Shown in pieces: positions 6,614-22,136 of a stretch of 64,000 bases of DNA. Under the pieces are notes generated by a model. The model was not told where the DNA came from. It did not search any database and saw only the letters and a program-made list of their open reading frames with translations. Position numbers and translations under genes: made by a program. The DNA comes from a virus, in the IMG/VR virus record IMGVR_UViG_3300028800_000059, positions 32,001 to 96,000 of that record; one strand, written 5' to 3'. Every line of letters starts with the position of its first letter. The stretch's first letter is position 1.

Positions 6614-6688
6614 TGGTCGGACCACGGGGTGCTGCCCCCCGTCCCCCGGCTTGAAAGGCCAGTATTCTAGCTGGTAAACTATGATCCG
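6614..6688 (-). tRNA. trnE: tRNA-Glu(TTC), non-canonical T-loop GGCAGCA
   Basis: Acceptor CGGATCA/TGGTCCG, anticodon arm CTGGC-CTTTCAA-GCCGG, encoded CCA. Confidence 0.88.
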
Positions 6689-7074
6689 TAATGTTCCTTG
6701 CGATGGCAATTGGAACATAAAACCTCACATTTTGCAACTTCTTTCATCAAACGAGCCCAGCCATACCAAGTTAATTTATGGCCTATATTGAAATCTTTTT
6801 TTCCGTTAATATGATGAAAATCAAGACATGCTGGGTGATTTTCCCCGCATTTTACACAATTTAAAGTGGCTTTAAAGGCTCGCCACCTTTTTATTTTTTC
6901 TTTTTTCCTTAATCGAGTATCTTCAATATATTTAGATTTATTCTGTTGATAATGTGATTGATGATATTCCTTATTGCATTGAATACAATAAGCTTGTCTG
7001 TTTTTAGTAGGATGTATTCTAAAATTTTCTAGTGTTTTTGTCTGTTTACATCGATAACAAGTTTTTGTTTCCAT
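6679..7074 (-). CDS. HNH endonuclease with N-terminal zinc finger (start reassigned to METKTC)
   Basis: CYRC...C.QC, CVKCGENHPACLDFHH, LCSNCHRKEH; CTAAATA 5 nt upstream. Confidence 0.85.
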   Translation of the reverse strand: METKTCYRCKQTKTLENFRIHPTKNRQAYCIQCNKEYHQSHYQQNKSKYIEDTRLRKKEKIKRWRAFKATLNCVKCGENHPACLDFHHINGKKDFNIGHKLTWYGWARLMKEVAKCEVLCSNCHRKEHYGS

Positions 7075-7103
7075 ACACGTATTTAGACTTTCAAAAAAGT
7101 CAA

Positions 7104-7253
7104 GAAGTGAAAACGAGAGAAGGACGCCGAAATTCTCGGGACGGTCTTTTAGAACCACGCTCTCTATTGCGGGTGTCCTTCGCTCTTTCAAACTCGGGGC
7201 GTTTTAAGCCCGCCCCGTAAGGCGTATGAGTATTTTGGGCTCCACTTCACTCC
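7104..7253 (-). ncRNA. Putative multi-stem structured RNA (~150 nt)
   Basis: Closing stem GGAGTGAA/TTCACTTC; helices GGGGCG/CGCCCC, GAAGGAC/GTCCTTC, CCGA/TCGG, GGTT/GACC; promoter immediately upstream. Confidence 0.55.
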
Positions 7254-7269
7254 CTCAACTCACATAAAG

Positions 7270-7306
7270 TCTAGCACAGACCACACGAAATATGATTACG
7301 TTGTTT
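7270..7306 (-). promoter_or_regulatory. Conserved phage promoter motif, copy 2
   Basis: 29/37 nt identical to 240-276. Confidence 0.65.
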
Positions 7307-7326
7307 GTGCCGTTTTAGCAATTAAA

Positions 7327-7524
7327 TTACCCTTTGCAATGATGCTGATCGTGCTTTGATCCATTCACCGGGGTAGGGGCTTCATGATTTCCGCATGGAT
7401 GCCATGATGCAAACGCGCCTTCTGTAGTCGAACAATTATTCGGCCGACCATTATCAGCCGCAATTGCCATTCCAGAAAATCCCATGGCAACAATTAATGC
7501 CATACCTAAAATCAACTTATTCAT
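7327..7524 (-). CDS. Small exported protein
   Basis: Signal peptide MNKLILGMALIVAMGFSGMAIA. Confidence 0.55.
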   Translation of the reverse strand: MNKLILGMALIVAMGFSGMAIAADNGRPNNCSTTEGAFASWHPCGNHEAPTPVNGSKHDQHHCKG

Positions 7525-7614
7525 AACAAATTCCTTTCAAAGAAAAAATTCACATTGGCGAAATTGCCAATTCATCATTATATCACTTTAGAAAGGCAGT
7601 TACGAGAGCTAAAT

Positions 7615-7971
7615 TTAAGCGTCCAAAAGGGTAGTTACGATTGAGTAAAACAAACCATCTTTCAATTGCTGTTCTGCTGGCAAATCTTCGTATGGAACGA
7701 AACATGGATGTTCTTTCTTCTCCACGTCTTTCACGGAACCATATGTCCAACCGTCGGCTTCTTTATCTTTGAGCCAGTTATTGTGGCTCGCATCTGGGCC
7801 TGCGGAGAGATTTTCGGCTAGAAAATTCACCCCTGAGATACAAGAATTTTTCTGCCAATCTGGAGCCGAATCCCAATCGTTCTGAGAAAAATCTCCTAGC
7901 GATTCACAATAGGCTTTGTTGGCTTGATGGGCGATTTTTGCAATATCTTCGATTGTCATTTTAAATATCAC
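7615..7971 (-). CDS. RyR-domain protein
   Basis: HNNW...K...GWTYG..KD..KK.HPC.VPYEDLP motif. Confidence 0.8.
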   Translation of the reverse strand: MIFKMTIEDIAKIAHQANKAYCESLGDFSQNDWDSAPDWQKNSCISGVNFLAENLSAGPDASHNNWLKDKEADGWTYGSVKDVEKKEHPCFVPYEDLPAEQQLKDGLFYSIVTTLLDA

Positions 7972-8059
7972 CTACGCCCTTAATGCCAATAGGCCGGCCG
8001 CCTTCAATAAAGATTGGAATGTAAGCAGGAAAATCTCTAATTCTCATTTTTATTTCTCC

Positions 8060-9004
8060 TTAGTTCAAAGTGTTAGTGTCTTCATTGCGGTTTCTTAGAT
8101 ACAAATCCCACTCGTGTTGAAGGTCTGGTTTGTTGCCAGCAAATTCATAAACACCATAGGAATTTCTCTTCAAATCATTATCGGGATTGAATTGATGTTT
8201 TACGAACATATCCCAACGGTCGATGTATTTTCTATCTGTCTTTCGGCCATGGAAGAAGTGTTCGATGGTGCCCCAAACAAATCCAATGTTTTTGTTAACA
8301 TGACGCAACGCCCGGGCTTCCCAACGCTTCAAGTGAGCCAAATATCCTTGTGTTACTCCACCGGGAACCGAACGGTCAACTTCACCGATCAAGGAAAGTG
8401 CCATATGATGATCTGCCGATCCCATTGCACAAATATCCAAAAGTCCGCCTAACCATTCTAAGGTAACTCGATTGGCTGCCCAACAGAATCCAGTGTGCGG
8501 ATAGGCATATGGTCCGCCGTCATGCTTCCAGAAATTCTTTTGATTAGGAATTACTGGTTGACGATTCCACCACTGATAGCAGAATGATTTATGTGCCTGG
8601 ATATGTTCATCGTTAGGGCCTAGATCGTAGGCATCTGTCCATGGTTGGACAATATCATATTGTTGAAGTGCGTGGACGGTATCCGCCGCCCATGAATTTT
8701 TTCTGAATTCGATATCGGCGTCACTCCAACAAATGTATTTCGCCTCTGGAATTCTTGCAATTCCGATGTTAAGCAAGTTTTCCTTATTCCATGTCTGTGT
8801 CTTGGCACGGACTGGAATATGATTGACGAATTTGTTGGTAGGGATAAGATCATGTGGACGTTCACCATATTGACATTCGACCACTGTCAGATTCACTCCA
8901 GAATCCAACATATGTTCCTCAAATTGTTTATAGAGATTTATTCGGGAGTCCCATCGGACAGGATTTGATATAGCAGTTACAACATGGAGCAATTCTGATT
9001 TCAT
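8060..9004 (-). CDS. GT-A fold glycosyltransferase-like protein
   Basis: WNKENLLNIG, WSDADI (DxD) and EHFFHG motifs. Confidence 0.65.
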   Translation of the reverse strand: MKSELLHVVTAISNPVRWDSRINLYKQFEEHMLDSGVNLTVVECQYGERPHDLIPTNKFVNHIPVRAKTQTWNKENLLNIGIARIPEAKYICWSDADIEFRKNSWAADTVHALQQYDIVQPWTDAYDLGPNDEHIQAHKSFCYQWWNRQPVIPNQKNFWKHDGGPYAYPHTGFCWAANRVTLEWLGGLLDICAMGSADHHMALSLIGEVDRSVPGGVTQGYLAHLKRWEARALRHVNKNIGFVWGTIEHFFHGRKTDRKYIDRWDMFVKHQFNPDNDLKRNSYGVYEFAGNKPDLQHEWDLYLRNRNEDTNTLN

Positions 9005-9023
9005 TTTTTTCCCTTTTCAAATA

Positions 9024-9098
9024 TGGTGCTTCCGTCTGGATTTGAACCAAATCCTTTCGCCTTATGAGGACGCCGTGCTGCCGTTACACCACAGAAGC
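9024..9098 (-). tRNA. tRNA with CAT anticodon (Met or Ile2)
   Basis: Acceptor GCTTCTG/CGGAAGC, loop CT-CAT-AA, T-loop TTCAAAT, CCA. Confidence 0.88.
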
Positions 9099-9126
9099 GG
9101 CACAACCATATTTAGTCGAAGGGAAA

Positions 9127-9582
9127 TCAGAAATCTAGAAATTTTGTGAATAATTTTCCAGCCAGTCCTAGGATGGGATTGAACAACATGACCCAATCCC
9201 AAATCTGTAACAATCTAGTTGCCAATACCACAAAAAATCCATTGATGCCAATTGTTACGACGACCGTAGGAAACCAAAACCCAGCCCTATAATCAGAATC
9301 ATCAGATTCACGTTTATCTTTGGCCCATTCACAATTCCACCATCGTTTCATTCCGATTTTCCAAAAAACAATCAGTCCAACCAGGCCCATCAATCCTAAG
9401 AAAATACTACTAGCAGCGTTCAATCGAAGAACCCACATAAAAGTATCGGCAATATCAGGACCGTATTTTATGGCTGCATCTTTCAAGAAACCACCTAAGT
9501 TTGCCATGGCATCTTGAATAGAATGTGAATTGCTAACCAAGGTACTAAGAATGTCTGTTGGTGTATTTGTTGGATCGGCCAT
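9127..9582 (-). CDS. Membrane protein, hypothetical
   Basis: Two hydrophobic helices; GGAG RBS. Confidence 0.6.
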   Translation of the reverse strand: MADPTNTPTDILSTLVSNSHSIQDAMANLGGFLKDAAIKYGPDIADTFMWVLRLNAASSIFLGLMGLVGLIVFWKIGMKRWWNCEWAKDKRESDDSDYRAGFWFPTVVVTIGINGFFVVLATRLLQIWDWVMLFNPILGLAGKLFTKFLDF

Positions 9583-9906
9583 TTATTGTAACTCCTCAGA
9601 TGAATATTTTTGCAATAAGACACAATTAATTCTGGCAATCATTTCCTTGCCTTTAGTTTTTTTTGGTTTGAATTCTTTGGCTCGCGACCAAATAAATCGT
9701 CTGTCTGTTCCAGATAATGTTGGAATATTGTGGTCTTTCAAACTCATTCGATCCAAGCATAATCCATAGGCACTGTTGGCTATCCATATAGATATTTGTG
9801 CCTTATGATGCTTCAAATTAAATCTGTCACATTCCCATCCTTTCGGATCATCTTCCAAAAGACACACAATCGCTTTGGCTAATTCCGACGGTCTAAAAAA
9901 CATCAT
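9583..9906 (-). CDS. Hypothetical protein
   Basis: Tiles with neighbours; GGAG RBS. Confidence 0.55.
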   Translation of the reverse strand: MMFFRPSELAKAIVCLLEDDPKGWECDRFNLKHHKAQISIWIANSAYGLCLDRMSLKDHNIPTLSGTDRRFIWSRAKEFKPKKTKGKEMIARINCVLLQKYSSEELQ

Positions 9907-9925
9907 TATTCTCCATTAAAAAATC

Positions 9926-9978
9926 TGGGTCGAGGAAGGAATCGAACCTCCCAGCTAGGCCAGTCCAGACTTCGACCC
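9926..9978 (-). ncRNA. tRNA-like minigene lacking the anticodon arm
   Basis: Acceptor GGGTCGA/TCGACCC, D-like hairpin CTGG-ACTGGC-CTAG, T-arm GGGAGG-TTCGATT-CCTTCC; no anticodon arm, no CCA. Confidence 0.6.
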
Positions 9979-9985
9979 GCAAACT

Positions 9986-10081
9986 TTAGCCCTTGTGACG
10001 ATTCTTGCGACGTTCTTTGCGCTTGGTGCTGCCAATCTTGCGGCGACCTTTACGGGGGCGATTCTTATGCGGCCATGCCAA
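9986..10081 (-). CDS. 31-aa highly basic peptide MAWPHKNRPRKGRRKIGSTKRKERRKNRHKG
   Basis: TTG start with GGAG RBS; clean frame to TAA; not in the ORF track. Confidence 0.65.
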   Translation of the reverse strand: MAWPHKNRPRKGRRKIGSTKRKERRKNRHKG

Positions 10082-10098
10082 GATGATTTCTCCAATTA

Positions 10099-10106
10099 TA
10101 TAAATA
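10099..10106 (+). promoter_or_regulatory. T4-type late promoter TATAAATA
   Basis: Exact 8-mer upstream of the plus-strand HNH gene. Confidence 0.7.
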
Positions 10107-10142
10107 CTCTACCCCAATAAGAAACCAAATGAGGAGATTGGT

Positions 10143-10820
10143 ATGATCATAGAAAACAAATATTCAAAGTGGTATTACTCTATCATAAAGAAGGCGGTAA
10201 TACAAGAAAGAAAAAGACTATCGAGAGAATCTGGTAAATACATCTATTATGAAAAACATCATATTTTACCTAAATGTCTTGATGGTAGTAATGAAGCAAT
10301 CAATCTTGTTTTGCTTACTGGTAAGGAACATTTTATTTGTCATTTATTGCTTCCTAAAATGGTGAATAATTTGGGAGAAAAAGCAAAATTGATAAATGCG
10401 TTGATTAAAATGGTTTTCGCAAAATCAAAAGGACAAAAAAGATATACATCCAAATCTTATGAATTAATTCGTAAAATGATTGCAGAAAAAAATAGCATTA
10501 TGTTTAAAGGAAAAAAGAAATCATTACAAATGAGAAAAAGATTATCTAAGACCAGAACGGGAATGAAATTTTCTGAATCGCATCGTAAAAATCTTGGTAT
10601 AGCTAATAGTAAAAGAATAGGAGAAAAAAATCCCTTTTTTGGAAAACATCATACAAAAAAATCAATGGATAAAAGAACTGCTACTAGAAAAAAGAATGGA
10701 TGGCCCGGTAAAGTTAGCACTAAAGGATATAAATGGTATAATGATGGAAATATTGAAAGTATTTCCAAAATTCCTATTTTTGGATGGAAGCCAGGACGTA
10801 TTGGTTGGAAAAAATCTTAA
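10143..10820 (+). CDS. HNH homing endonuclease with NUMOD3-like DNA-binding repeats (antisense)
   Basis: YYEKHHILPKCLDGSN...NLVLLT.KEHFICHLLL; NPFFGKHHT repeat. Confidence 0.85.
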   Translation: MIIENKYSKWYYSIIKKAVIQERKRLSRESGKYIYYEKHHILPKCLDGSNEAINLVLLTGKEHFICHLLLPKMVNNLGEKAKLINALIKMVFAKSKGQKRYTSKSYELIRKMIAEKNSIMFKGKKKSLQMRKRLSKTRTGMKFSESHRKNLGIANSKRIGEKNPFFGKHHTKKSMDKRTATRKKNGWPGKVSTKGYKWYNDGNIESISKIPIFGWKPGRIGWKKS

Positions 10821-11092
10821 AATTCGTCGCCAAATCCACCGGCAACATTTTCTAGATATTCTGCAAGAGCATCATAGCCGCCGATGTATTGAGCATGTTG
10901 ACCATCAGGATTTGTGAAAATCTGTGGTACTAATTTCTTGTCGGTGTATTCTTCAATGATCTTATAAAATTCTCGGACAGAAATATCTCGCCCAATCACA
11001 ACTTCCCTGTAGATATGTCCAAGTCTCTTTAAAAGTTCCTTGGCCTTTTCGCACCAGGAACAATTCGGTTGTGTGTAAATGGTGAATTTCAT
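10817..11092 (-). CDS. Glutaredoxin
   Basis: YTQPNCSWCEKAK, VPQIF, YIGGYD motifs. Confidence 0.9.
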   Translation of the reverse strand: MKFTIYTQPNCSWCEKAKELLKRLGHIYREVVIGRDISVREFYKIIEEYTDKKLVPQIFTNPDGQHAQYIGGYDALAEYLENVAGGFGDEF

Positions 11093-11334
11093 GGTCGTAT
11101 TACCGGGTAAGAACCATATTGAACAAACGCATCGTTACATGCCTGTTTTAATTCTGGCGTAAAATTCGAATTGTATTCATACACGTTGTATTTTTTGCAT
11201 AGATTGTATGTTCTATATAAGGTTTCTAATTTTGGGTCTTTATAGGTTGGTCCCTGGGCAGCGAGAAATAACAAAACAAAAATCTCGACAACAAAAGATA
11301 ATATCAAACCAACAAGAATATGTGATTGTTTCAT
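11089..11334 (-). CDS. Membrane-anchored hypothetical protein
   Basis: N-terminal TM helix; overlaps both neighbours. Confidence 0.55.
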   Translation of the reverse strand: MKQSHILVGLILSFVVEIFVLLFLAAQGPTYKDPKLETLYRTYNLCKKYNVYEYNSNFTPELKQACNDAFVQYGSYPVIRP

Positions 11335-12551
11335 TATTGCAACTCCGTTGTTTCGCCTTTTCGCATCAGATAGGCGTCATTGATACTCTTGACAATTACG
11401 CGATGATGATAACGATTCTTGCGCCCAGAAAGATGTTCGATGGCCGGCTTGATAACAATGCCTTCGCGAATATGAACATTAAATCCAATCTCGGTATTGC
11501 CGGAGGTATACATATCTAACACGATTTTGGAATATGGACCTGTATAAAGAACCGGAACACTAGGCAAATCAAAATATTTCAAATTTCCAAACAACGTCGC
11601 AAAATCCATGAAGGTGCCATTGGCGATTGTTTCGTCCCAACAGTAAATATCAAACACACGAAATTCTGGTTTGTCCAAATCATAATGTAGGTCCTGAATG
11701 CCGCGCCCGGCAATTTCGCCACATACAATGAATGAGCCGCCCATGAAATCACGTAAAAATTCTAATTTTTCCTTATGTTCTTTGAAGGCTCGCGTATAGA
11801 CGTTATCAGTCTTTTCCAGGTCAAACACGTAACCCTTGGCACCTAGACCCTTCGACGCAACGTACCAGCCCTTGTCAGGATGATAGCCAATCTGACAGAA
11901 GGTGCCGTGAAGTTTCTCGGTCATAACAACTTCCTCGCCTTCTTCAAAGGCGTCTGGCCAAGACTTGATATTGTCGATATCGTAATTCAACGTATAGCCA
12001 AAGAAATCGCCGCGAACAACTCCCTGCATAGAACCTGGAATTGGTGGTTCGTATTTCGTGATACCTAGAACTTCGGCAACATCATCGCCTTCTTCGACCA
12101 TCACGTCCTGAGTATATTCACCATTTCTGTCCTTTGTGAAAAAAGGATCACCTTCCAGAACTGACGTGGGCAAAGGAATGTTCTTGATCCAATTTTCTTC
12201 CCAAGACCCACCAGATTCAGAATGTTCCTCGGTGACAACTGGAACCAAGATGCCCTGTGAAACAACGCCACGAAGGCGGATGGCCTTGACGCGATTGTAT
12301 CCAGCGCCAGAAAGCATACCACGATTGGTTGACTCGTCCCAGAAACCCTGGCTTTTCAGAAGCCATTCCGGCACAAGTGAAGCTTCTGGAACATAGGCGA
12401 CAAGATCACCTACTTTATATCGTGGTGAACCATCTTCAAGTTTGCCAGAAATACAGGTCCATCCTCGTACAGTCACGAGAGAAAGCCTGTCGGCATTTGG
12501 ATGATTTTCTACCGCATCGACGCGGACGATTGGAACTTCAAAGTGAGACAT
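11334..12551 (-). CDS. ATP-dependent RNA ligase, DRB0094 family
   Basis: N-terminal OB domain (HPNADRL), motif I EKLHGT, CGEIAG, FRVFDI, REGIVIK, VKSINDAYL. Confidence 0.88.
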   Translation of the reverse strand: MSHFEVPIVRVDAVENHPNADRLSLVTVRGWTCISGKLEDGSPRYKVGDLVAYVPEASLVPEWLLKSQGFWDESTNRGMLSGAGYNRVKAIRLRGVVSQGILVPVVTEEHSESGGSWEENWIKNIPLPTSVLEGDPFFTKDRNGEYTQDVMVEEGDDVAEVLGITKYEPPIPGSMQGVVRGDFFGYTLNYDIDNIKSWPDAFEEGEEVVMTEKLHGTFCQIGYHPDKGWYVASKGLGAKGYVFDLEKTDNVYTRAFKEHKEKLEFLRDFMGGSFIVCGEIAGRGIQDLHYDLDKPEFRVFDIYCWDETIANGTFMDFATLFGNLKYFDLPSVPVLYTGPYSKIVLDMYTSGNTEIGFNVHIREGIVIKPAIEHLSGRKNRYHHRVIVKSINDAYLMRKGETTELQ

Positions 12552-12855
12552 TATATTTTTTCCTACATGTAATATAAATGCTGGACGCTACCAGGCCCGC
12601 AACTAGAGTAAGTATCGTTAATCCTATTGTAGTTAAAACTCCACAGGCATAAAAAGAAGGTGTATCTTCGACTCTAAATTGATTTGGTGTATTCAACAAC
12701 CAAAGCACGAACATTCCAAGATAATAAAATCCCCATACACAATAAGAAATAAAGAATGTTCCTAGTGTCACCATTATACCAGGAATTGCGACATACCAAG
12801 GAAGTTTACCTACAAAACATAATTTCTTCAACATGAATATATCTCCCATTTTCAA
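12538..12855 (-). CDS. Membrane protein, hypothetical
   Basis: Two hydrophobic segments. Confidence 0.55.
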   Translation of the reverse strand: MKMGDIFMLKKLCFVGKLPWYVAIPGIMVTLGTFFISYCVWGFYYLGMFVLWLLNTPNQFRVEDTPSFYACGVLTTIGLTILTLVAGLVASSIYITCRKKYNVSL

Positions 12856-12860
12856 AAAAT

Positions 12861-12935
12861 TGGCTCCAGGCTCAGGTTTCGAACCTGTCTCTCGAAATTC
12901 AGAGTTTCGCGTTCTACCGAATAAACTATCCTGGA
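12861..12935 (-). tRNA. trnQ: tRNA-Gln(CTG)
   Basis: Anticodon arm CGAAA-CTCTGAA-TTTCG, T-loop TTCGAAA, CCA. Confidence 0.9.
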
Positions 12936-12958
12936 ATAAAAATATTTAGACTGTCGGA

Positions 12959-13216: not shown

Positions 13217-13237
13217 TTTTTTCTCCTTGTTAAAAAC

Positions 13238-13327
13238 TGGTGCCTTGAGGAGGACTTGCGCCTCTCGTCTACTACCCCATTTGTTTAATGACAGCGGAGT
13301 TACAGGCCGCCAACGGGAACTCTCGGC
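13238..13327 (-). ncRNA. Atypical tRNA-Tyr(GTA)-like element, D-arm largely missing, long extra region
   Basis: CT-GTA-AC loop in a GCGG/CCGC stem, T-loop CGCAAGT, 3' ACCA; imperfect acceptor stem. Confidence 0.55.
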
Positions 13328-13576
13328 ATTTTAGTGAATCGGAACAACAGAATATGTTGCAGTACCTAACACAAGCAATGTCAATGCAGCACCTAAAATC
13401 ATACCAATAAACACGGCAATCAACACATGTAATTTAGTAAACATTAATTCTGCCTTTTCAAAAAATAGGATGTGAAGTCCACACTCGGCAACAATTTGCC
13501 CAGGTACATAATACAGTTCCTAATAGTATCATAGTCCAGAATAATATCCAAATGATTTTTTTGAACATGATGAATT

Positions 13577-13666: not shown

Positions 13667-13671
13667 AATAA

Positions 13672-13761
13672 TGGCGGGCAGCCGAGGTATCGATCCCCAA
13701 ACCTTTTTCAGATTCCAGCCGCTTTCGAGGCGGTGGCTTGCGCCAGCAAACTTGACTACCC
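13672..13761 (-). tRNA. trnS: tRNA-Ser(CGA)
   Basis: CCGC-CTCGAAA-GCGG anticodon arm, long variable arm, GCCA end. Confidence 0.88.
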
Positions 13762-13770
13762 TTAAAAAAA

Positions 13771-13858
13771 TGGCGGAGTTCGGAGGTCTTGATCCCCAAT
13801 CGATTTCTCGGTCGTTGCGCTTTCCAGGCGAACCTGATCCCTGACCAGTTCAAACTCC
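13771..13858 (-). tRNA. trnS: tRNA-Ser(GGA)
   Basis: CGC-CTGGAAA-GCG anticodon arm, long variable arm, GCCA end. Confidence 0.88.
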
Positions 13859-15020: not shown

Positions 15021-15023
15021 ATT

Positions 15024-15278: not shown

Positions 15279-15287
15279 ATTCCTTCA

Positions 15288-15316: not shown

Positions 15317-15318
15317 GA

Positions 15319-15665: not shown

Positions 15666-15872
15666 TTTTCTTTCCTTTATTCCAAGGAATAATTTTCTTT
15701 AATTTCTCTAAGGTTTCGACCGAATACACTCCAGTTTTTCCTTTATTCCAAGGCGTGCGTCCTTTCATTTTTTTAGAATGAGATATCCGTCGGCAAGATC
15801 GTTTGTTTTATGAGACCCAACATAAACCTTGCCATTCTTTACGTTGGTCGTTTTATAGATGATAAAATACAT
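15640..15872 (-). pseudogene. Internally deleted GIY-YIG homing endonuclease remnant
   Basis: MYFIIYKTTNVKNGKVYVGSHKTNDLADGYL then stop; an out-of-frame PWNKGKTGVYS...PWNKGK tail follows; CTAAATA upstream. Confidence 0.75.
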
Positions 15873-15908
15873 GCGAAAATTTCCTGCATGTATTTAGTCA
15901 CCTCTATG

Positions 15909-15980
15909 TACCCAATGACGGTACTTCCCCGCCTTCTCCGCCATGTAAGGGCGGCGTCTTAATTTCTGAACCCATCGGGC
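15909..15980 (-). tRNA. trnV: tRNA-Val(TAC), non-canonical T-loop GGAAGTA, CCA not encoded
   Basis: Acceptor GCCCGAT/ATTGGGT, anticodon arm CCGCC-CTTACAT-GGCGG, T-stem GGCGG/CCGTC. Confidence 0.78.
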
Positions 15981-15991
15981 TTTATTCCAAT

Positions 15992-16066
15992 TGGTAGACC
16001 GTGGGAATTCTGCCATCCCGACTTCCAAATTAAGAGTTTGGCACTCTGCTTCTGAGTTAACGGTCC
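15992..16066 (-). tRNA. trnK: tRNA-Lys(CTT), non-canonical T-loop GGCAGAA
   Basis: Acceptor GGACCGT/ACGGTCT, CCAAA-CTCTTAA-TTTGG, CCA. Confidence 0.88.
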
Positions 16067-16413
16067 TTATTTCTTTTATTTGCGTCACTTCGATATTTTT
16101 TTATTTCCAATTCAATATTGGGATCAAATCGTTTATAATTTTTTGGTATAGTGACCAAACCCGCATGATATTCTATATGACAATTGAAACACAATAAAAC
16201 ACATTTTTTAATTTCTTCGGAAACCCTTTCCCAACTCATGGTATTGGAAGTTCCTAAGGCAAACTTCTTTTGTTTAGGATCAATATGATGAAAAGTTAAT
16301 GCTTCAATGCTTTTATCATATCCACATATTTGACAACAATCGCCCATGGCTCTCACCATTCTTGATTTTTGTCGTTTTCTAAAACTTCTTACCCTACCAG
16401 AATTTATAGACAT
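16057..16413 (-). CDS. HNH endonuclease
   Basis: CQICGYDKSIEALTFHHIDP...KCVLLCFNCHIEYH. Confidence 0.85.
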   Translation of the reverse strand: MSINSGRVRSFRKRQKSRMVRAMGDCCQICGYDKSIEALTFHHIDPKQKKFALGTSNTMSWERVSEEIKKCVLLCFNCHIEYHAGLVTIPKNYKRFDPNIELEIKKYRSDANKRNKDR

Positions 16414-16454
16414 TGCTAAATTAACCTCTAAGGTTATTTAGCAATGTTTAGGCT

Positions 16455-16733
16455 TTATTCCTGCAAAAGCTTGATCTTCTTTTCCTTCTTGGCCTTCTTA
16501 TTGGCCTTGCGAGTCTTTTCATATTTTTCAAAGGCAGCATCAATCATTTTCTGCATTTGCTTTAGAAGTTCTTTCTTGTCGTCGGTGCTGCAATCCGGTT
16601 CACCATTGACCTTATCGAGCACTTTGGCGGCATCGATAAGTTTTTTATAATCCCTCCAATCTGGATAGGTATATTCTTTTAATGGCCAGTGTTCATCGAA
16701 AGGTCTCTGTATCATTGCACTCATTACACACAT
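16455..16733 (-). CDS. Hypothetical protein
   Basis: AAGGGAG RBS; GEPDC motif. Confidence 0.55.
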   Translation of the reverse strand: MCVMSAMIQRPFDEHWPLKEYTYPDWRDYKKLIDAAKVLDKVNGEPDCSTDDKKELLKQMQKMIDAAFEKYEKTRKANKKAKKEKKIKLLQE

Positions 16734-16755
16734 CTATTTTTCTCCCTTAAAAAAT

Positions 16756-16830
16756 TGGTAGGCCGTGAGAATTTCGAAATCTCGACACCGGGGTTAAAAG
16801 TCCCGCGCTCTGCCTCTGAGCTAACGGCCT
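16756..16830 (-). tRNA. trnK: tRNA-Lys(TTT)
   Basis: CGGGA-CTTTTAA-CCCCG, T-loop TTCGAAA, CCA. Confidence 0.92.
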
Positions 16831-16836
16831 ATGTTT

Positions 16837-17652
16837 TTAAATCTCAATCACCATTCCAGGATTAAACTTTAGATTTTCCTGGTAGTGGGCATATCCTCTA
16901 GGGTTACAAATTACCCGCGTTGTATTTATCATATAATCGTAATTATCATGGGTGTGACCATGAAACCACAACTTTACATTTGGACTCATCAAAGACTCTA
17001 AATTCGAAGAATACGCTCCATTTGTAATAAATTCAGTTTTGAATCTTGGATGCGTCGATTGCTTCGAAGGCGACATATGAGTAAACACGATCACTTTAAG
17101 CTGTGCAAATTCCTTGATTTTTTCTTCCAACCAAGCCCGTGAAGTCTTGTGAAGTTCATAGGCATCTTCTGGCTGGAAAGTTTTCCCTGGAACACTCTGC
17201 ATAATCTGGTAGTCATTTAGTTCATATTTGATTTGATGTAATGTGGTTGGATCGCCTTCATTGAAATCAGTCCATAACGTTGCACCAAGAAATACATACT
17301 CAGGAAATTTTCCAATCCATAGATGTTCATTTTCCATGATACGAACATTAGGATAATCCTTTAGAAATTCGCTGATGTTAGGTCTTGCATCGCGAACATT
17401 ATATCCATAGGCTTCATGATTACCAAAACAATACAGGATGTTTTCATATTTCTTGCTGGCGGCATCAAAAAATGCCGCAACATTCTTTTTATGGGCGCGA
17501 GATTCCTTATCGGTACGCGCCTCACTCAAATATTTGGCAACGCAAATATCTCCAGGCAAAAGCAACACGTCGGCATCTGGAAGTCCCTTGATTAATTCAT
17601 CAATTCCACCTGGAAATTCCAAATGTAAATCTGACATTTCTGCAATTCGCAT
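16837..17652 (-). CDS. Calcineurin-like metallophosphoesterase (start reassigned to MRIAEMSDLH)
   Basis: SDLH, GDI, GNHE, THMSP, FHGHTH motifs. Confidence 0.88.
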   Translation of the reverse strand: MRIAEMSDLHLEFPGGIDELIKGLPDADVLLLPGDICVAKYLSEARTDKESRAHKKNVAAFFDAASKKYENILYCFGNHEAYGYNVRDARPNISEFLKDYPNVRIMENEHLWIGKFPEYVFLGATLWTDFNEGDPTTLHQIKYELNDYQIMQSVPGKTFQPEDAYELHKTSRAWLEEKIKEFAQLKVIVFTHMSPSKQSTHPRFKTEFITNGAYSSNLESLMSPNVKLWFHGHTHDNYDYMINTTRVICNPRGYAHYQENLKFNPGMVIEI

Positions 17653-17806
17653 ATCAACTCCTAACTTCATTGTATTCTCATGATTTCTTCCAATTAGCAA
17701 CAAAACAAGACATTTTTTTCAAATCAGGTCCTAATGCAATCGCTGCCAATAAAAATGCCTGATACAGCTTTGTTTCTAGTTCTTTCATTTGTTATCCTTC
17801 AAAAAA

Positions 17807-17881
17807 TGGCGATCTATCCGGGAGTTGAACCCGGCTTTTCCGCTAGACAGGCGGGCGTAATAGCCGATATACCAATAGACC
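17807..17881 (-). tRNA. trnD: tRNA-Asp(GTC)
   Basis: CCGC-CTGTCTA-GCGG, T-loop TTCAACT, GCCA. Confidence 0.9.
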
Positions 17882-17918
17882 ATTCTATCACAAAATCACA
17901 ATCAATCCAAGCAAAAAA

Positions 17919-17993
17919 TGGTGCCGTGGTGTGGTGCTGCCCCACAATCTGGCCCTTACCAAAGGCCCGTTTTACTGTTGATACTACCTCGGC
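17919..17993 (-). tRNA. trnT: tRNA-Thr(GGT), non-canonical T-loop GGCAGCA
   Basis: GGCCT-TTGGTAA-GGGCC, T-stem TGTGG/CCACA, CCA. Confidence 0.86.
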
Positions 17994-17998
17994 AAATT

Positions 17999-18072
17999 TG
18001 GTGCCAGAGCAAGGAATTGAACCCTGATAAGTTGATTACGAATCAACCGTAATGCCTTTATACGACACTGGC
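17999..18072 (-). tRNA. trnT: tRNA-Thr(CGT)
   Basis: GTTGA-TTCGTAA-TCAAC, T-loop TTCAATT, CCA. Confidence 0.9.
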
Positions 18073-18139
18073 AATTATATCTTCCTGGCGTCGAGAGTTT
18101 CCCGCATATGTCCCCGTAGCGACAACACCAGTAGGATTT

Positions 18140-18214
18140 TGGGGTGAATGGAGAATTACGATATCTCGATTAGACCTTCACAGGGTCGCGTGTTTCCTCT
18201 ACACTACATTCACC
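18140..18214 (-). tRNA. trnH: tRNA-His(GTG) with encoded G-1
   Basis: GACC-CTGTGAA-GGTC, 8-bp acceptor G-1:C73, CCA. Confidence 0.9.
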
Positions 18215-18225
18215 ATAATCTCTTT

Positions 18226-18303
18226 TGGTCCCTCTGATTGGACTTGCACCAATCTTTTTAGCCTTATGAGGGCTCGACACACCTATCTCTGTCTCACAGA
18301 GGA
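18226..18303 (-). tRNA. tRNA with CAT anticodon (Met or Ile2), T-loop TGCAAGT
   Basis: AGCC-CTCATAA-GGCT, acceptor TCCTCTG/CAGAGGG, CCA. Confidence 0.82.
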
Positions 18304-18549
18304 TCGCCAACTTTCAATTCCCATTTTATAAATCAATCTATTTTTAATTGCTCTTTTTTGTTTTTTTATGACACTCTTTACATTTCATGGTCTATCCAGC
18401 GTAAAAAATTTGAAACACACCTATTAGATATGTTTCGACAGTGGGGGCTATCATAGTCACTGAATCACCCTGCCAACGGCTTGGCGCCTTCATCCAAAAA
18501 TCTGACGAAGATTTTTGTCCAGCATTGAACAAGTCCCGTCCCTCATAAA

Positions 18550-18625
18550 TGGTGCCGCCTCAACGGATCGAACGTCATTCTCCGCGTCTTCAGCGCGGCG
18601 TGAGAACCATCTTCACCAAAGCGGC
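18550..18625 (-). tRNA. trnF: tRNA-Phe(GAA)
   Basis: CCGCG-CTGAAGA-CGCGG, T-loop TTCGATC, CCA. Confidence 0.9.
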
Positions 18626-18720
18626 ATTATTTTTTCAATAATTTAACAACCTGATAGATTGTAATACAAACTATCAAAACAATTACAGGCACATATTGCA
18701 TAATTTTTCTCCTCTAAAAA

Positions 18721-18802
18721 TGGTGCCCTAGGAGGGACTTGAACCCCCATGCTTTCGCGCTTGCTCCTAAGGCAAGTGTGTCTGCCATTTCACCACCAGG
18801 GC
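18721..18802 (-). tRNA. trnL: tRNA-Leu(TAG)
   Basis: CTTGC-CTTAGGA-GCAAG, variable arm, CCA. Confidence 0.92.
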
Positions 18803-18808
18803 TTATTT

Positions 18809-18895
18809 TGGTGTCTCTGGAGGGAATTGAACCCCCACCCCGATTAAGGGAGCAGATTTTGAGTCTGCCGCGTCTGCCTGTTTCGCCACAAAGAC
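18809..18895 (-). tRNA. trnL: tRNA-Leu(CAA)
   Basis: GCAGA-CTCAAAA-TCTGC, long variable arm, CCA. Confidence 0.92.
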
Positions 18896-18896
18896 C

Positions 18897-19181
18897 TTAT
18901 AGTGTTCCTCTTGATCCAAGACCACAAGGACAATTCGAATTTGAACAATAATACCACATGGCCGCAGCCAGTTTCAATCCACACTTAGGACACTTACCAA
19001 AATCTCTCTCTTTTAGTATATAGTCCTCATCGTTCAAATTTGGGCATCCTTCATCCACCATTCTTTCTTCATAATCACCAGGTCTAGGAAAAAAATGATT
19101 ATAGACTACCTGATGTAAACTTGGAACATCTTCAAAATTTCTATATTGTTTCATTATTTCCTTCCTCTCGGATTTTCCCAA
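18897..19181 (-). CDS. Hypothetical protein with C-terminal Cys-rich zinc ribbon (start uncertain)
   Basis: CPKCG...CSNSNCPCG. Confidence 0.55.
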   Translation of the reverse strand: MGKSERKEIMKQYRNFEDVPSLHQVVYNHFFPRPGDYEERMVDEGCPNLNDEDYILKERDFGKCPKCGLKLAAAMWYYCSNSNCPCGLGSRGTL

Positions 19182-19378
19182 ATATTTTCTGGATTTCTGT
19201 TTCGTAATTTATCGGCAATGAACCAAACCCAAAGAAAAATTACAATCAAGCCTCCTTCGATATGAGTGGATTTATCCCAGAAAAGGAAAAACCCAGCGCC
19301 GAGAGAGAAAAAGATTTTTTCCCATTTGTGCGGTCTCTCCCAAATCCACGTCAACCAATCATCAAAACTATCTTTCAT
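19154..19378 (-). CDS. Small membrane protein
   Basis: Two hydrophobic segments. Confidence 0.5.
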   Translation of the reverse strand: MKDSFDDWLTWIWERPHKWEKIFFSLGAGFFLFWDKSTHIEGGLIVIFLWVWFIADKLRNRNPENIWENPRGRK

Positions 19379-19762
19379 TTATTTTCCCTTATGTGCCTCA
19401 CAACGAGTTCTCCACCAACCTTTTTCTTCGGTATTGGTACCTGGTGAACCACAAATTTCACAAATTTTGCCGCTTAATAATTCGGCCATTCTTATATAGC
19501 CATTCATTTCATCAGTAGAAAAGGAATCTAAATAAAATCTCAAACATCCAAATTTTTCTTTTACTTGAAATGCCGCAGGTTGCTTTGCCTTATTCCATTT
19601 AACATCGTTTTGAATAGCAAAACAAAGGCTATCAATTATATCATACCAACCATCGCCACAACTAAAACCCCAACACATAGCCGTTTGATTCTCTGGCGCA
19701 TGACGATCCTTGAAAATTTCAGGATAGTCGGCACAAAGTTTATCATCAAGTTCTTTTCTCAT
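19379..19762 (-). CDS. Conserved phage hypothetical protein
   Basis: CGDGWYDII and QVKEKFG.LRFY motifs. Confidence 0.7.
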   Translation of the reverse strand: MRKELDDKLCADYPEIFKDRHAPENQTAMCWGFSCGDGWYDIIDSLCFAIQNDVKWNKAKQPAAFQVKEKFGCLRFYLDSFSTDEMNGYIRMAELLSGKICEICGSPGTNTEEKGWWRTRCEAHKGK

Positions 19763-19781
19763 AAATCACTCCTTTAAAAAA

Positions 19782-19855
19782 TGGTGCGCCAGCATGGTTC
19801 TGCCCCACGGTTCCACGGTTATCGGCCGCGTTTCCTGCTATTGGAAGACAAGCGC
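19782..19855 (-). tRNA. trnI: tRNA-Ile(GAT), T-loop GGCAGAA, C at position 33
   Basis: CGCGG-CCGATAA-CCGTG, T-stem CGTGG/CCATG, CCA. Confidence 0.82.
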
Positions 19856-20011
19856 ATTTAATCCTGAAAGAAAATCGTTTTTGGCCTTTACACAAACCGG
19901 ACAATTATTACTCTTATCATGCGGACATTCGATCTTCCGAGCCAAAAATTCTTTTCGTTTGCTCTTGTAATAGTCAAGCGATTGACTAGGAAATGTCTGA
20001 TAACTAAACAT
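19838..20011 (-). CDS. Small hypothetical protein (CPH...CPVC); 3' end overlaps tRNA-Ile
   Basis: GGAG RBS before MFSYQTF. Confidence 0.5.
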   Translation of the reverse strand: MFSYQTFPSQSLDYYKSKRKEFLARKIECPHDKSNNCPVCVKAKNDFLSGLNALVFQ

Positions 20012-20092
20012 ATTTATCTCCTTGGTAACAAAAAACGCAAGACGTTCATTCAAAAACAATCTTGCGTTTTTTCGCCATGCAAGATCGTATTT

Positions 20093-20569
20093 TTACTCGG
20101 CCTTATGATCCTCAATTGTCACAGACTGTAATGTCCATGCTTCATTAACGCCCTTTGGCTTTACGAAAGTCAGTTTCAAAGTTGAATTAACTTCAACCCC
20201 ACCATGCTGAGGCATCCTTGCTAGTTCGGCTTTGGAATCCCAAAGGCTTTTACCAACATGAATGCCATTAACATAGTCATTATAGACATTCAAATAACCG
20301 ACTTTGGTTTCGACTGGGCGAACCAAGGCATATTCATCGTCATTCTTAGTGTATCCCTGGGAACTCAAATCATAATTATTAGATGGATTTCCATCATAAT
20401 CAACCCAGGAAACAAACTCAGGAACTCCAACACGCAACGAATATTGCGGCTTCACATTATAACGAATCATCAGAAGATCGGAATTAGCCGAGCCTCCCAT
20501 TACCTTGGCGTCATAATATCCACCTTTGGTTTCATAAACTTCACCAGTCTTAAATACGCTCTTACTCAT
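20093..20569 (-). CDS. Hypothetical protein
   Basis: 158 aa ORF tiling with neighbours. Confidence 0.6.
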   Translation of the reverse strand: MSKSVFKTGEVYETKGGYYDAKVMGGSANSDLLMIRYNVKPQYSLRVGVPEFVSWVDYDGNPSNNYDLSSQGYTKNDDEYALVRPVETKVGYLNVYNDYVNGIHVGKSLWDSKAELARMPQHGGVEVNSTLKLTFVKPKGVNEAWTLQSVTIEDHKAE

Positions 20570-20572
20570 TGT

Positions 20573-20797
20573 CTATTTTCCTTTCTTTGGTTTCTCTATT
20601 GGTGCGGCCAATAATGCTTCTAGCACATCAATCTTGGACTTTTGATATAGATACGCTCGACAGACATTGATGGTTTCAACATCATAATTTCCGGCATCAT
20701 CGTCAACTACGGTGCGCGCAAAAACATCAGCGCCGGGCATATCGACATACATAGGAATTTCCAAATACATGTTATTAGTTTTTGCTTTGTCGCTCAT
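20573..20797 (-). CDS. Hypothetical protein
   Basis: Tiles with neighbours. Confidence 0.55.
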   Translation of the reverse strand: MSDKAKTNNMYLEIPMYVDMPGADVFARTVVDDDAGNYDVETINVCRAYLYQKSKIDVLEALLAAPIEKPKKGK

Positions 20798-21275
20798 TTG
20801 ATTTTAATCCTTCACTCAAAATAATTGTCGCCCATTCAGAAATTCCAGGATTTGTTCGTTCGCGATTTCCTGCAACGTTCAACGTCACAATGCGATAGTC
20901 CTGAATAAATCTCCGTATCAAAAATATGGCTTCCTGTAGATCATAGGTGCGGCGAATTTTCAGAAATTTTCTATCTTCTTCGCAACAATATCTATGGGTC
21001 AGCTTGCAACCAGGCGATCCCAGATCACCCATAATCAACGTGCCATCAGAAATTTTTACGTTCAATCTAGTTCTTGGTGGATACGTTGGCGATGAATGTG
21101 CCAAGAGTCCATATTCTTTTGCGAACTCTGGATTTGGACCTTCGTCGGTCTTAAATCCCTGTGGCATCCAACCACCAGTTTTCAATCCAAGCACCTTGGC
21201 AACTTTCAGCGCAGTTTGATCCACGCCAGTTTGCCCACCAGATACAACTCTTTTAAGGGGCCAAGGTTTAATCAA
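20775..21275 (-). CDS. SLOG-superfamily (putative molybdenum-carrier family) protein
   Basis: VVSGGQTGVDQTAL, TGGWMPQG, RTRLNV..SDGTL, LNVAGNRE. Confidence 0.82.
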   Translation of the reverse strand: MIKPWPLKRVVSGGQTGVDQTALKVAKVLGLKTGGWMPQGFKTDEGPNPEFAKEYGLLAHSSPTYPPRTRLNVKISDGTLIMGDLGSPGCKLTHRYCCEEDRKFLKIRRTYDLQEAIFLIRRFIQDYRIVTLNVAGNRERTNPGISEWATIILSEGLKSNERQSKN

Positions 21276-21610
21276 AATATCTCCAATACCAACTTTTCAT
21301 ATTTGGGTTGCCTTCTGGCATCAATGAATATCTCGACGCAACCCTACGATATTTTTTGAACCCAATAAACCTAAGCCATTTTGGGGTACGCGCATAAATC
21401 CCATATTTAATTTCATCGTCAGTATATGACTTGAACATTGCTCACCATTCGACAAGCCACTGTGGAAATTGTTTTTTGAAAGTAGAATATTCCCAATAAC
21501 TCAAACCTGGCATGATAGATCGAAAACGTCTAAGATTTGATTTGCCTAAAAAAAATCTTAAATACCAAGGAGTAATTTGCCAATGTCCCGTTATTAAATT
21601 CATTCTTTAA

Positions 21611-21639
21611 AGTGTATCACATGTTCTAGTGGTATTCAA
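21611..21639 (-). promoter_or_regulatory. Sigma70-type promoter TTGAAT-17-TACACT
   Basis: 17-nt spacer with extended -10 TG. Confidence 0.6.
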
Positions 21640-21648
21640 CAATTATTT

Positions 21649-21723
21649 TGGACAACCGGGCGGTATCTGCCTCCGCATTTCGGGATTTGCAGTCCCGCAC
21701 ATTTCTAGGTCTGTCACCGGCTG
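21649..21723 (-). tRNA. trnC: tRNA-Cys(GCA), non-canonical T-loop GGCAGAT
   Basis: CGGGA-CTGCAAA-TCCCG, U73, CCA. Confidence 0.85.
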
Positions 21724-21730
21724 GTAGTAG

Positions 21731-21802
21731 TTGATCCTTGGCGAGGAATCGAACCTCGCGTTCTCCCGTCGGCGCATAGCCCACTAATGCTACAAGGATC
21801 AA
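21731..21802 (-). ncRNA. tRNA-like element with collapsed anticodon arm
   Basis: 10-bp terminal stem TTGATCCTTG/CAAGGATCAA, D-arm GCAT-TAGTGGGCT-ATGC, T-arm CGAGG-TTCGATT-CCTCG; only ~14 nt between the D and T arms. Confidence 0.6.
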
Positions 21803-21803
21803 T

Positions 21804-21879
21804 TGGTGGTCCCAGAAAGATTCGAACTTTCAATAGAGGATTCGTAGTCCTCAGGTTTGTCCAGTTAGCCTATGAGACC
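21804..21879 (-). tRNA. trnR: tRNA-Arg(ACG)
   Basis: GAGGA-CTACGAA-TCCTC, T-loop TTCGAAT, CCA. Confidence 0.9.
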
Positions 21880-21901
21880 GTATATTTTTACCTGCATAAA
21901 T

Positions 21902-21977
21902 TGGTCTTCCCGCGAGGACTCGAACCCCGAACTGTTCATTAGGAGTGAACCGTTATTTCCAGTTTCACTACGAGAAG
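21902..21977 (-). tRNA. trnR: tRNA-Arg(CCT)
   Basis: GTTCA-CTCCTAA-TGAAC, T-loop TTCGAGT, CCA. Confidence 0.9.
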
Positions 21978-21980
21978 GTT

Positions 21981-22055
21981 TGGCGATCCCGGAGAGATTC
22001 GAACTCCCACCGCCGGGTTCGAAGCCCGGAATTCTATCCATTATACTACGAGACC
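21981..22055 (-). tRNA. trnR: tRNA-Arg(TCG)
   Basis: CCGGG-CTTCGAA-CCCGG, T-loop TTCGAAT, CCA. Confidence 0.9.
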
Positions 22056-22060
22056 AAAAA

Positions 22061-22136
22061 TGGCTCCCATCCTACGTACCGCCCGTAGCCAATTCTGATT
22101 AACAGTCAGACCTCGTCGCTTGCTGAGTCGATGGGA
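22061..22136 (-). tRNA. trnN: tRNA-Asn(GTT), non-canonical T-loop GGCGGTA
   Basis: TCTGA-CTGTTAA-TCAGA, T-stem CTACG/CGTAG, GCCA. Confidence 0.85.

What the first reader, a model, noticed from the sequence alone, without database searches (positions are those of the whole stretch)
6614..22136. Eight tRNAs share a recoded D-loop/T-loop elbow (G54-G55-C/A56-R-G58 with A18)
Seen in the sequence: tRNA-Glu(TTC) 6614, Ser(GCT) 13577, Val(TAC) 15909, Lys(CTT) 15992, Thr(GGT) 17919, Ile(GAT) 19782, Cys 21649 and Asn 22061 have T-loops GGCAGCA, GGCAGGA, GGAAGTA, GGCAGAA, GGCAGCA, GGCAGAA, GGCAGAT and GGCGGTA instead of TTCRA. In six of them the D-loop G18G19 is AG; the register is ambiguous in Ser(GCT). 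In Val(TAC), A56 faces U19, a compensatory change of the G19-C56 pair. There is an internal control: Lys(TTT) has D-loop AGAGGCA with TTCGAAA, while Lys(CTT) has AGAAGCA with GGCAGAA. Established: G18-Psi55, G19-C56 and T54-A58 form the elbow read by TruB, TrmA, RNase P and the ribosome. Inference: covariation across unrelated isotypes implies selection, not decay. These may be modification-independent tRNAs or tRNAs that elbow-reading host toxins and anti-phage nucleases fail to recognise. I cannot confirm novelty without a search.
Basis: partly seen in the sequence, partly recalled or inferred. Interest (0 to 1): 0.85.

Follow-up and report, generated by a model that had tools for sequence, protein, structure and literature searches.

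The report
Phage tRNAs with a tmRNA-type elbow
Eight tRNA genes of this phage, all missed by the ARAGORN tRNA finder, replace the near-universal corner nucleotides of tRNA with a matched alternative set; the same set is normal in alphaproteobacterial tmRNA and common in phage and accessory bacterial tRNAs, and it removes the site cut by a recently described anti-phage nuclease.

Summary
Confirmed. Eight minus-strand tRNA genes of a 177-kb T4-like phage have G54-G55-(C/A)56-R57-G58 T-loops. Six carry A18-G19, Val has A18-U19 facing A56, and Ser is ambiguous. ARAGORN misses all eight. In about 1,270 tRNAs I collected, A18/G55 and G18/U55 are almost mutually exclusive, 19-56 stays Watson-Crick, and G54 goes with G58 and A60. 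Selecting on the D-loop alone gave G55 in 88 of 88. The elbow itself is not new: it is the Rfam consensus of alphaproteobacterial tmRNA (28 of 28 sampled), and it resembles riboswitch and rRNA T-loops. Anabaena's trn-operon tRNA-Ile carries it and was reported aminoacylated in vivo. It is rare in housekeeping tRNAs but fills whole accessory arrays beside RtcB and Ro60 genes. These are probably working tRNAs (about 0.8). The leading reason for selection is loss of the U54/U55 site that the Schlafen nuclease Cash needs (about 0.45, untested). I found no paper on this tRNA class. This scan has noted the A18/G55 swap 45 times on other DNA.

The parts
6614..6688 (-). tRNA-Glu(TTC), A18-G19 with G54-G55-C56-A57-G58, A60, encoded CCA
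   Evidence: the only one of the eight found by Rfam RF00005 (37.4 bits); keeps U11-A24, U13.G22 and a 4-nt variable loop
13577..13666 (-). tRNA-Ser(GCT), long variable arm, G73, G54-G55-C56-A57-G58, U53-A61; D-loop register ambiguous
15906..15980 (-). tRNA-Val(TAC), A18-U19 with G54-G55-A56-A57-G58 (compensatory 19-56 change); no encoded CCA
15992..16066 (-). tRNA-Lys(CTT), A18-G19 with G54-G55-C56-A57-G58, U53.U61
16756..16830 (-). tRNA-Lys(TTT), canonical elbow; internal control (near-identical D-arm with G18, also U53.U61)
17919..17993 (-). tRNA-Thr(GGT), variant elbow, one acceptor-stem mismatch
18226..18303 (-).
   Evidence: missed by ARAGORN
19782..19855 (-). tRNA-Ile(GAT), variant elbow, C33 instead of U33, U6.U67
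21649..21723 (-). tRNA-Cys(GCA), variant elbow with U60, A53.A61, U73
22061..22136 (-). tRNA-Asn(GTT), G73; T-loop identical to the Rfam alpha_tmRNA consensus T-loop

Best explanation
These are working elongator tRNAs with an alternative L-shape lock. A18 intercalates between positions 57 and 58 and contacts the sugar edge of G55, as in riboswitch T-loops, instead of G18 contacting Psi55. A G54.G58 pair, supported by A60, replaces U54-A58. The 19-56 Watson-Crick face read by RNase P and the ribosome is kept. The phage transcribes them with its other tRNAs, and the host machinery processes and charges them; an alphaproteobacterial host already handles this elbow in its own tmRNA. The most likely reason they are favoured in phages and stress-induced arrays is that they lack the U54-U55-C56 motif, so T-loop-cutting defence nucleases of the Cash/Schlafen type cannot cleave them there, and part of the tRNA pool survives. 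Shown here: the sequences, the covariation and the distribution. From papers: charging of one natural example, the riboswitch geometry and Cash specificity. Inferred: the 3D contacts, expression in this phage, the host and nuclease escape. Probability that they are functional tRNAs is about 0.8; functional and selected for nuclease escape, about 0.45.
For: Covariation: D-loop-only selection gave G55 in 88/88 distinct tRNAs. Among non-seed viral tRNAs, G55 had AG in 197/217 and GG alone in 0; U55 had GG in 608/647 and AG alone in 1. 19-56 compensation occurs in both classes: G56 with A18-C19 in 19/23, A56 with A18-U19 in 14/20. G54-G55 goes with G58 in 117/119 and with A60 in 111/117; the subclass spans 16 amino-acid classes and 25 anticodons, with stems and CCA as intact as canonical tRNAs. 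Seven window variants share only 22-49% body identity, so they are not one duplicated gene. Functional precedent: Rfam RF01849 consensus and 28/28 alphaproteobacterial tmRNAs. Anabaena trn tRNA-Ile(GAU) has this elbow and was detected and aminoacylated in vivo (PMC8421152 section 21). The only tRNA-Trp found in one small alphaproteobacterial genome is A18/G55. Geometry: YGNRA T-loops with an intercalated A, and an rRNA T-loop with G at positions 1, 2 and 5 (bioRxiv 10.1101/2022.12.26.521914). Nuclease: Cash cuts 5' of U55, and single U54 or U55 mutations abolish cleavage (PMC13462974). Whole G55 arrays sit beside RtcB and Ro60/TROVE tRNA-repair genes.
Against: Sixteen of 25 window tRNAs keep U55, including Lys(TTT) for a heavily used codon, and variant status does not track codon use. 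Cash also cuts anticodon loops with a UC motif, and another bacterial Schlafen cuts the anticodon arm, so a T-loop change need not protect. I did not check which bases the Cash mutants carried. The host and its defences are unknown. The elbow is fixed in housekeeping alpha tmRNA, which does not obviously call for escape. The Anabaena tRNA-Ile migrated aberrantly in acid gels. Several of the eight have extra defects (Ile C33, Val without CCA). The sampled tRNAs are related to each other and enriched for variant-rich loci, so the counts are not independent events.
Confidence: 0.45

Rival explanations
1. Working tRNAs selected for independence from modification: purine-purine contacts give a stable elbow without TruB, TrmA/TrmFO or TrmH, which helps when tRNAs are made quickly during infection or stress.
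For: G54 and G55 cannot become m5U54 or Psi55 (established chemistry; PMC7912444). Unmodified riboswitch T-loops use this module. The class is concentrated in phage clusters and in arrays of a kind known to be stress-induced.
Against: All five genomes tested (four with G55 arrays, one with a lone A18/G55 tRNA-Trp) still encode TruB. Most G55 tRNAs keep U54-A58. Unmodified canonical T-loops still fold.
Confidence: 0.2
2. A neutral, isosteric alternative reached by compensatory drift in redundant, fast-evolving accessory tRNAs, with no special advantage.
For: Mixed clusters are common. 54-58 varies widely (U-A, A-U, G-G, C-A, A-A). Alpha tmRNA and a lone tRNA-Trp tolerate it. No link to codon use.
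Against: Whole arrays of 15-30 unrelated isotypes are essentially 100% G55, and a third of this phage's tRNAs share the same four or five changes. Housekeeping tRNAs almost never show it. Intermediates are nearly absent.
Confidence: 0.2
3. Non-translating decoys or sponges: tRNA-shaped RNAs that bind or inhibit defence nucleases or serve Ro60/RtcB repair, and are kept out of the ribosome by the altered elbow. The G55 non-proteinogenic tRNA-Gly of staphylococci is a precedent recalled from memory.
For: Extra defects in Ile, Val, Cys and Thr. Proximity to Ro60 and RtcB in bacterial arrays. A sponge role was proposed for trn tRNAs.
Against: Anticodon, discriminator and CCA are kept across 25 anticodons. 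In this genome Asn, Cys and Ile(GAT) have no canonical twin. tmRNA with the same elbow acts on ribosomes (established). The phage has no TROVE or RtcB match.
Confidence: 0.1
4. Decaying pseudogenes or chance cloverleafs.
For: Missed by ARAGORN and mostly by Rfam; scattered mismatches.
Against: Zero cloverleaf hits in shuffled DNA; strict multi-site covariation; intact stems and CCA.
Confidence: 0.05

Closest known systems
Alphaproteobacterial two-piece tmRNA (Rfam RF01849 alpha_tmRNA)
   Same: The T-loop G54-G55-C56-R57-G58-N59-A60 and the D-side AG are the family consensus and occur in 28/28 sampled genomes, with A60 in 26. From memory, this T-loop is a published signature of the family (Keiler 2000; Mao 2009); those papers were not retrievable.
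   Different: tmRNA has no anticodon or D-stem and works with SmpB. Here the elbow sits in full cloverleaf tRNAs of eight isotypes. The phage's own tmRNA has U54-G55, not G54.
Canonical bacterial and phage elongator tRNA (Rfam RF00005)
   Same: Cloverleaf, anticodon loop, discriminator, CCA (7 of 8), 19-56 Watson-Crick pair, R57, 7-nt T-loop.
   Different: G18, U54, U55, A58 and usually Y60 are replaced by A18, G54, G55, G58 and A60; no substrate for TruB, TrmA or TrmH.
FMN/cobalamin riboswitch T-loops (YGNRA with intercalated A) and the rRNA T-loop with G at positions 1, 2 and 5 (Hansen et al., bioRxiv 10.1101/2022.12.26.521914)
   Same: G at T-loop position 2 contacting an intercalated A; the Val(TAC) pentaloop matches the rRNA sequence.
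   Different: These are not tRNAs, and their receptor is not a D-loop.
L-arrays, e.g. the Anabaena PCC 7120 trn operon (PMC8421152)
   Same: Accessory tRNA sets. The operon's tRNA-Ile(GAU) has this exact elbow and is charged in vivo. Verrucomicrobial arrays are almost wholly G55.
   Different: The paper does not mention the elbow, and most Anabaena array tRNAs are canonical. Here the genes are dispersed among phage ORFs.
Selected suppressor tRNAs with G54-G58 or G54-A58 (Zagryadskaya, Doyon & Steinberg 2003, PMID 12853610)
   Same: From memory: purine-purine 54-58 pairs mimic the reverse Hoogsteen pair in functional E. coli tRNAs. Only the citation was confirmed.
   Different: Laboratory-selected, not natural; I could not read it to check A18/G55 or A60.
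Phage tRNAs that evade anticodon nucleases (van den Berg 2023, PMC10264068; Azam 2024, PMC11555353; cited, not read here)
   Same: Proposed logic: phage tRNA variants lack a host nuclease site.
   Different: Those changes are in the anticodon arm and are isotype-specific; this one is in the core and shared across isotypes.

Membership tests
Elongator tRNA (RF00005) | Cloverleaf with 7-bp acceptor, 5-bp anticodon and 5-bp T stems | tested here: met
   at most one mismatch per stem, D-stems weaker
Elongator tRNA (RF00005) | Anticodon loop with Y32, U33, R37 | tested here: inconclusive
   met in 7 of 8; Ile has C33
Elongator tRNA (RF00005) | 3' NCCA | tested here: met
   encoded in 7 of 8; Val would need CCA addition
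Elongator tRNA (RF00005) | G18/U55, U54-A58, Y60 (canonical elbow) | tested here: not met
   all eight deviate; only Glu passes the Rfam threshold
Elongator tRNA (RF00005) | Watson-Crick 19-56 pair | tested here: met
   G19-C56 in six, U19-A56 in Val, Ser ambiguous; compensation across the larger set
Elongator tRNA (RF00005) | Expressed, processed, aminoacylated and used on ribosomes | not testable with these tools
Alphaproteobacterial tmRNA (RF01849) | T-loop G54-G55-C56-R57-G58-N59-A60 with D-side AG | tested here: met
   (Val has A56, Cys has U60)
Alphaproteobacterial tmRNA (RF01849) | Alanine identity, no anticodon arm, tag reading frame, permuted gene | tested here: not met
   the eight are cloverleafs with anticodons; no tmRNA hit in the window
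YGNRA riboswitch-type T-loop module | G at position 2 with an intercalating A | tested here: inconclusive
   sequence covariation fits; the 3D contact was not tested
YGNRA riboswitch-type T-loop module | Y-A closing pair at positions 1-5 | tested here: not met
   G.G in the eight; met only by the CAT tRNA at 18226 and by the phage tmRNA
Nuclease-evading phage tRNAs | Lacks the motif a known defence nuclease needs | tested here: met
   no U54 or U55; Cash requirement from PMC13462974
Nuclease-evading phage tRNAs | Demonstrated resistance to cleavage and rescue of infection | not testable with these tools
   needs biochemistry

The most novel reading that the evidence does not exclude
Phages and mobile tRNA arrays carry a hidden, isotype-wide second tRNA design (A18.G55, with G54.G58.A60 in this subclass) that works as a general counter-defence against T-loop-cutting nucleases such as Cash. 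Standard annotation misses many of these genes, so phage tRNA sets are undercounted.
Probability: 0.4. Interest if true: 0.82.

Novelty: new variant of a known kind. Interest (0 to 1): 0.62.

Why it matters
It shows that 'invariant' tRNA core positions have a second natural solution, linking tRNAs to the tmRNA and riboswitch T-loop family. ARAGORN missed 9 G55 tRNA genes in this window alone, so phage tRNA counts and codon-supply arguments are biased. It also gives a direct test for the open question of why phages carry tRNAs: a published nuclease needs exactly the two bases that are replaced. Cultured test cases exist (Anabaena trn tRNA-Ile; Streptomyces phage Jay2Jay tRNA-His). Nuclease-resistant or modification-free tRNA scaffolds would also be useful in genetic-code engineering.

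Tried and rejected
Relaxed ARAGORN thresholds (down to -ps85) still missed all eight and added noise. No close relative of the phage was found: protein-based locus searches gave one distant locus each, and L291 held no tRNAs; blastn hit only single canonical tRNAs or an HNH gene. Switching between orthologues in sister phages therefore could not be traced. Nearest-neighbour isotype assignment from tRNA bodies was weak, and clear only for Asn and Cys. Codon usage does not separate variant from canonical genes. Loss of TruB in carriers was rejected. The phage has no TROVE or RtcB match. A promoter/terminator scan was at chance level. A G54-G55 tRNA pattern in 151 alphaproteobacterial genomes gave only non-tRNA chance hits. 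A His-specific pattern in five small alpha genomes gave only non-tRNA hits in those inspected, so the earlier SAR11 note was not verified. Ten literature searches found no paper describing A18/G55 or G54/G58 natural tRNAs. Keiler 2000, Jacob 2004, Hafez 2013 and Zagryadskaya 2003 were not retrievable, and most subscription papers are not searched.
Full report
Setting. The window is bases 32001-96000 of a 177,318-bp virus record, 98% complete by CheckV. It encodes a family-B DNA polymerase, DnaB helicase, ribonucleotide reductase and RNA ligase by PHROG match. Its polymerase is about 46% identical to those of T4-like cyanophages at best, so no close cultured relative is held. It carries a permuted tmRNA matching the alphaproteobacterial family, which suggests, by inference only, an alphaproteobacterial host. 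About 25 tRNA genes lie on the minus strand between 6.6 and 22.4 kb, among small ORFs that include an RNA ligase and a metallophosphoesterase.

Observation. ARAGORN reports 14 tRNAs and none of the eight; Rfam finds only Glu. I wrote a cloverleaf scanner that ignores T-loop sequence. With a T-arm/CCA scan it recovers all eight and finds nothing in shuffled DNA. All 16 U55 genes keep D-loop GG, whereas 7 of 9 G55 genes lack it (p=7e-5). The two Lys genes share a near-identical D-arm and a U53.U61 mismatch but differ at 18, 54, 55, 57 and 58. Seven of the eight have A60. Seven variants compared share only 22-49% identity outside the elbow and anticodon, so they are not copies of one gene. Blemishes: Val lacks an encoded CCA, Ile has C33, and Thr, Ile and Cys each have a stem mismatch. 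Canonical genes here also have some mismatches.

Covariation elsewhere. Pattern scans of IMG/VR and GTDB gave loci holding 1,268 distinct cloverleafs. Selecting only on an A18-G19 D-arm gave G55 in 88 of 88. Among viral tRNAs not used as seeds, G55 had D-loop AG in 197 of 217 and GG alone in none, while U55 had GG in 608 of 647 and AG alone in one. Position 19-56 compensates in both backgrounds: G56 with A18-C19 in 19/23 and A56 with A18-U19 in 14/20; in U55 tRNAs, U56 with G18-A19 in 14/17 and A56 with G18-U19 in 9/9. Pair 54-58 occurs as U-A, G-G, A-U, C-A and A-A. G54-G55 goes with G58 in 117/119 (62/63 without seeds) and with A60 in 111/117, whereas U54-A58 goes with Y60. The G54-G55 subclass spans 16 amino-acid classes and 25 anticodons, with intact stems. 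These sequences are related and come from variant-enriched loci, so the counts show strictness, not frequency or independent events.

Distribution. In cellular genomes the A18 D-arm pattern was found in 5 of 200 sampled Verrucomicrobiota (besides the centre genome) and 1 of 300 Alphaproteobacteria. In five genomes from other groups, 80 of 81 matching D-arms had G18. Most hits lie in long accessory arrays where essentially every tRNA is G55 (up to 30 of 30), flanked by RtcB, Ro60/TROVE, HNH, sigma-factor and LysR genes. These genomes also hold ordinary high-scoring tRNAs elsewhere (checked for some carriers) and TruB. Rare stand-alone cases exist: the only tRNA-Trp found in genome G507 is A18/G55.

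Functional precedent. The Rfam alpha_tmRNA consensus has the same T-loop as this phage's tRNA-Asn, with AG on the D side. All 28 sampled alphaproteobacterial tmRNAs I could parse have G54-G55-C56-R57-G58, 26 of them with A60. tmRNA is processed by tRNA enzymes, alanylated and passes through ribosomes (established; PMC11915505), so this elbow is compatible with the machinery. The Anabaena trn operon tRNA-Ile(GAU) has the same elbow and is missed by ARAGORN. It was detected and aminoacylated in vivo, although with aberrant acid-gel mobility (PMC8421152); that paper does not discuss the loops. In FMN and cobalamin riboswitches the T-loop is YGNRA, and an almost invariant A intercalates and bonds to the sugar edge of the position-2 G; an rRNA T-loop with G at positions 1, 2 and 5 is also noted. 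That gives a structural model for A18.G55. From memory, G54-G58 was selected in functional suppressor tRNAs (PMID 12853610; citation only). The cultured Streptomyces phage Jay2Jay has a tRNA-His of this class among canonical tRNAs.

Mechanism. The face read by RNase P, L5 and the L1 stalk is the 19-56 pair (PMC4810234), and it is kept. What is lost is U54, U55 and G18. The CRISPR-associated Schlafen Cash cuts 5' of U55 in a UUC motif, and single U54 or U55 mutations abolish cleavage (PMC13462974); related Schlafens are tied to many defence systems. Escape from such enzymes would explain why whole arrays of unrelated isotypes change together and why they sit beside tRNA-repair genes. Against this: two-thirds of this phage's tRNAs keep U55, Cash also cuts some anticodon loops, RorSlfn5 cuts the anticodon arm, and the host's defences are unknown. 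I put functional tRNA at about 0.8, with nuclease escape 0.45, modification independence 0.2, neutral alternative 0.2, decoy 0.1 and decay 0.05.

Novelty. The elbow is known from tmRNA and from riboswitch and rRNA T-loops. Its use as a widespread class of natural elongator tRNAs was not found in ten searches of the open literature, but older subscription papers could not be read. I reached this reading before consulting earlier scan notes; 45 of them report the A18/G55 swap on other genomes, and a few report the G54/G58 subclass. Those notes are not independent support. Verdict: a real, new variant of a known kind; interest 0.62.

Noticed in passing
window 9926-9982 (-) and 21735-21797 (-): Two tRNA-like RNAs of about 60-65 nt, each with an acceptor-like stem, one hairpin and a canonical T-arm, but no proper anticodon arm or CCA. 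Could be mini tRNA mimics or Y-RNA-like; no Rfam hit.
   Followed up: partly
window 13238-13328 (-): CCA-ended RNA with a C54-G55-C56-A57-A58 T-loop and a GUA-centred hairpin but no normal D-arm and a bulged acceptor. No other tRNA-Tyr was found in the genome.
   Followed up: partly
window 22146-22255 (-): A folded element of about 110 nt between tRNA-Asn and tRNA-Pro, with acceptor-like ends and a T-arm-like hairpin; unidentified.
   Followed up: partly
window 13672-13761, 13771-13858, 18140-18213 (-): Ser(CGA), Ser(GGA) and His have A54 with U55 and D-loop GG; the two Ser genes have A54.A58 as in eukaryotic initiator tRNA and are missed by default ARAGORN. These also lack U54.
   Followed up: partly
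window 15992-16066, 16756-16830, 18140-18213 (-): Both Lys tRNAs and His have U53.U61 instead of the conserved G53-C61.
   Followed up: no
genome C1:17305-17749 and 25876-25949 (-), outside the window (L309): The permuted alpha-type tmRNA and a CAT tRNA also have G55 (U54-G55-C56-A57-A58) with D-side AG; the tmRNA tag frame is unusually long.
   Followed up: yes
L301:10260-18663 (G001:C10), L303, L305, L306: Verrucomicrobial all-G55 tRNA arrays are embedded with RtcB, Ro60/TROVE, HNH, sigma-70-like and LysR genes; one has a Fic-domain gene inside the array.
   Followed up: partly
L292 (G150:C14) and L308 (G507:C1:550048-550120): Stand-alone chromosomal tRNA-Phe and tRNA-Trp with A18/G55; by pattern search they appear to be the only ones for these amino acids in their assemblies.
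   Followed up: partly
L172 (NC_003273, trn operon): ARAGORN misses the operon's tRNA-Ile(GAU), which has the G54 elbow; the operon's tRNA-Glu(CTC) also appears to have G55 with D-loop AG.
   Followed up: partly
window 10143-10820 (+): A 225-aa ORF on the opposite strand inside the tRNA region that looks by eye like an HNH/NUMOD homing endonuclease; no Pfam hit at E<=0.001.
   Followed up: partly
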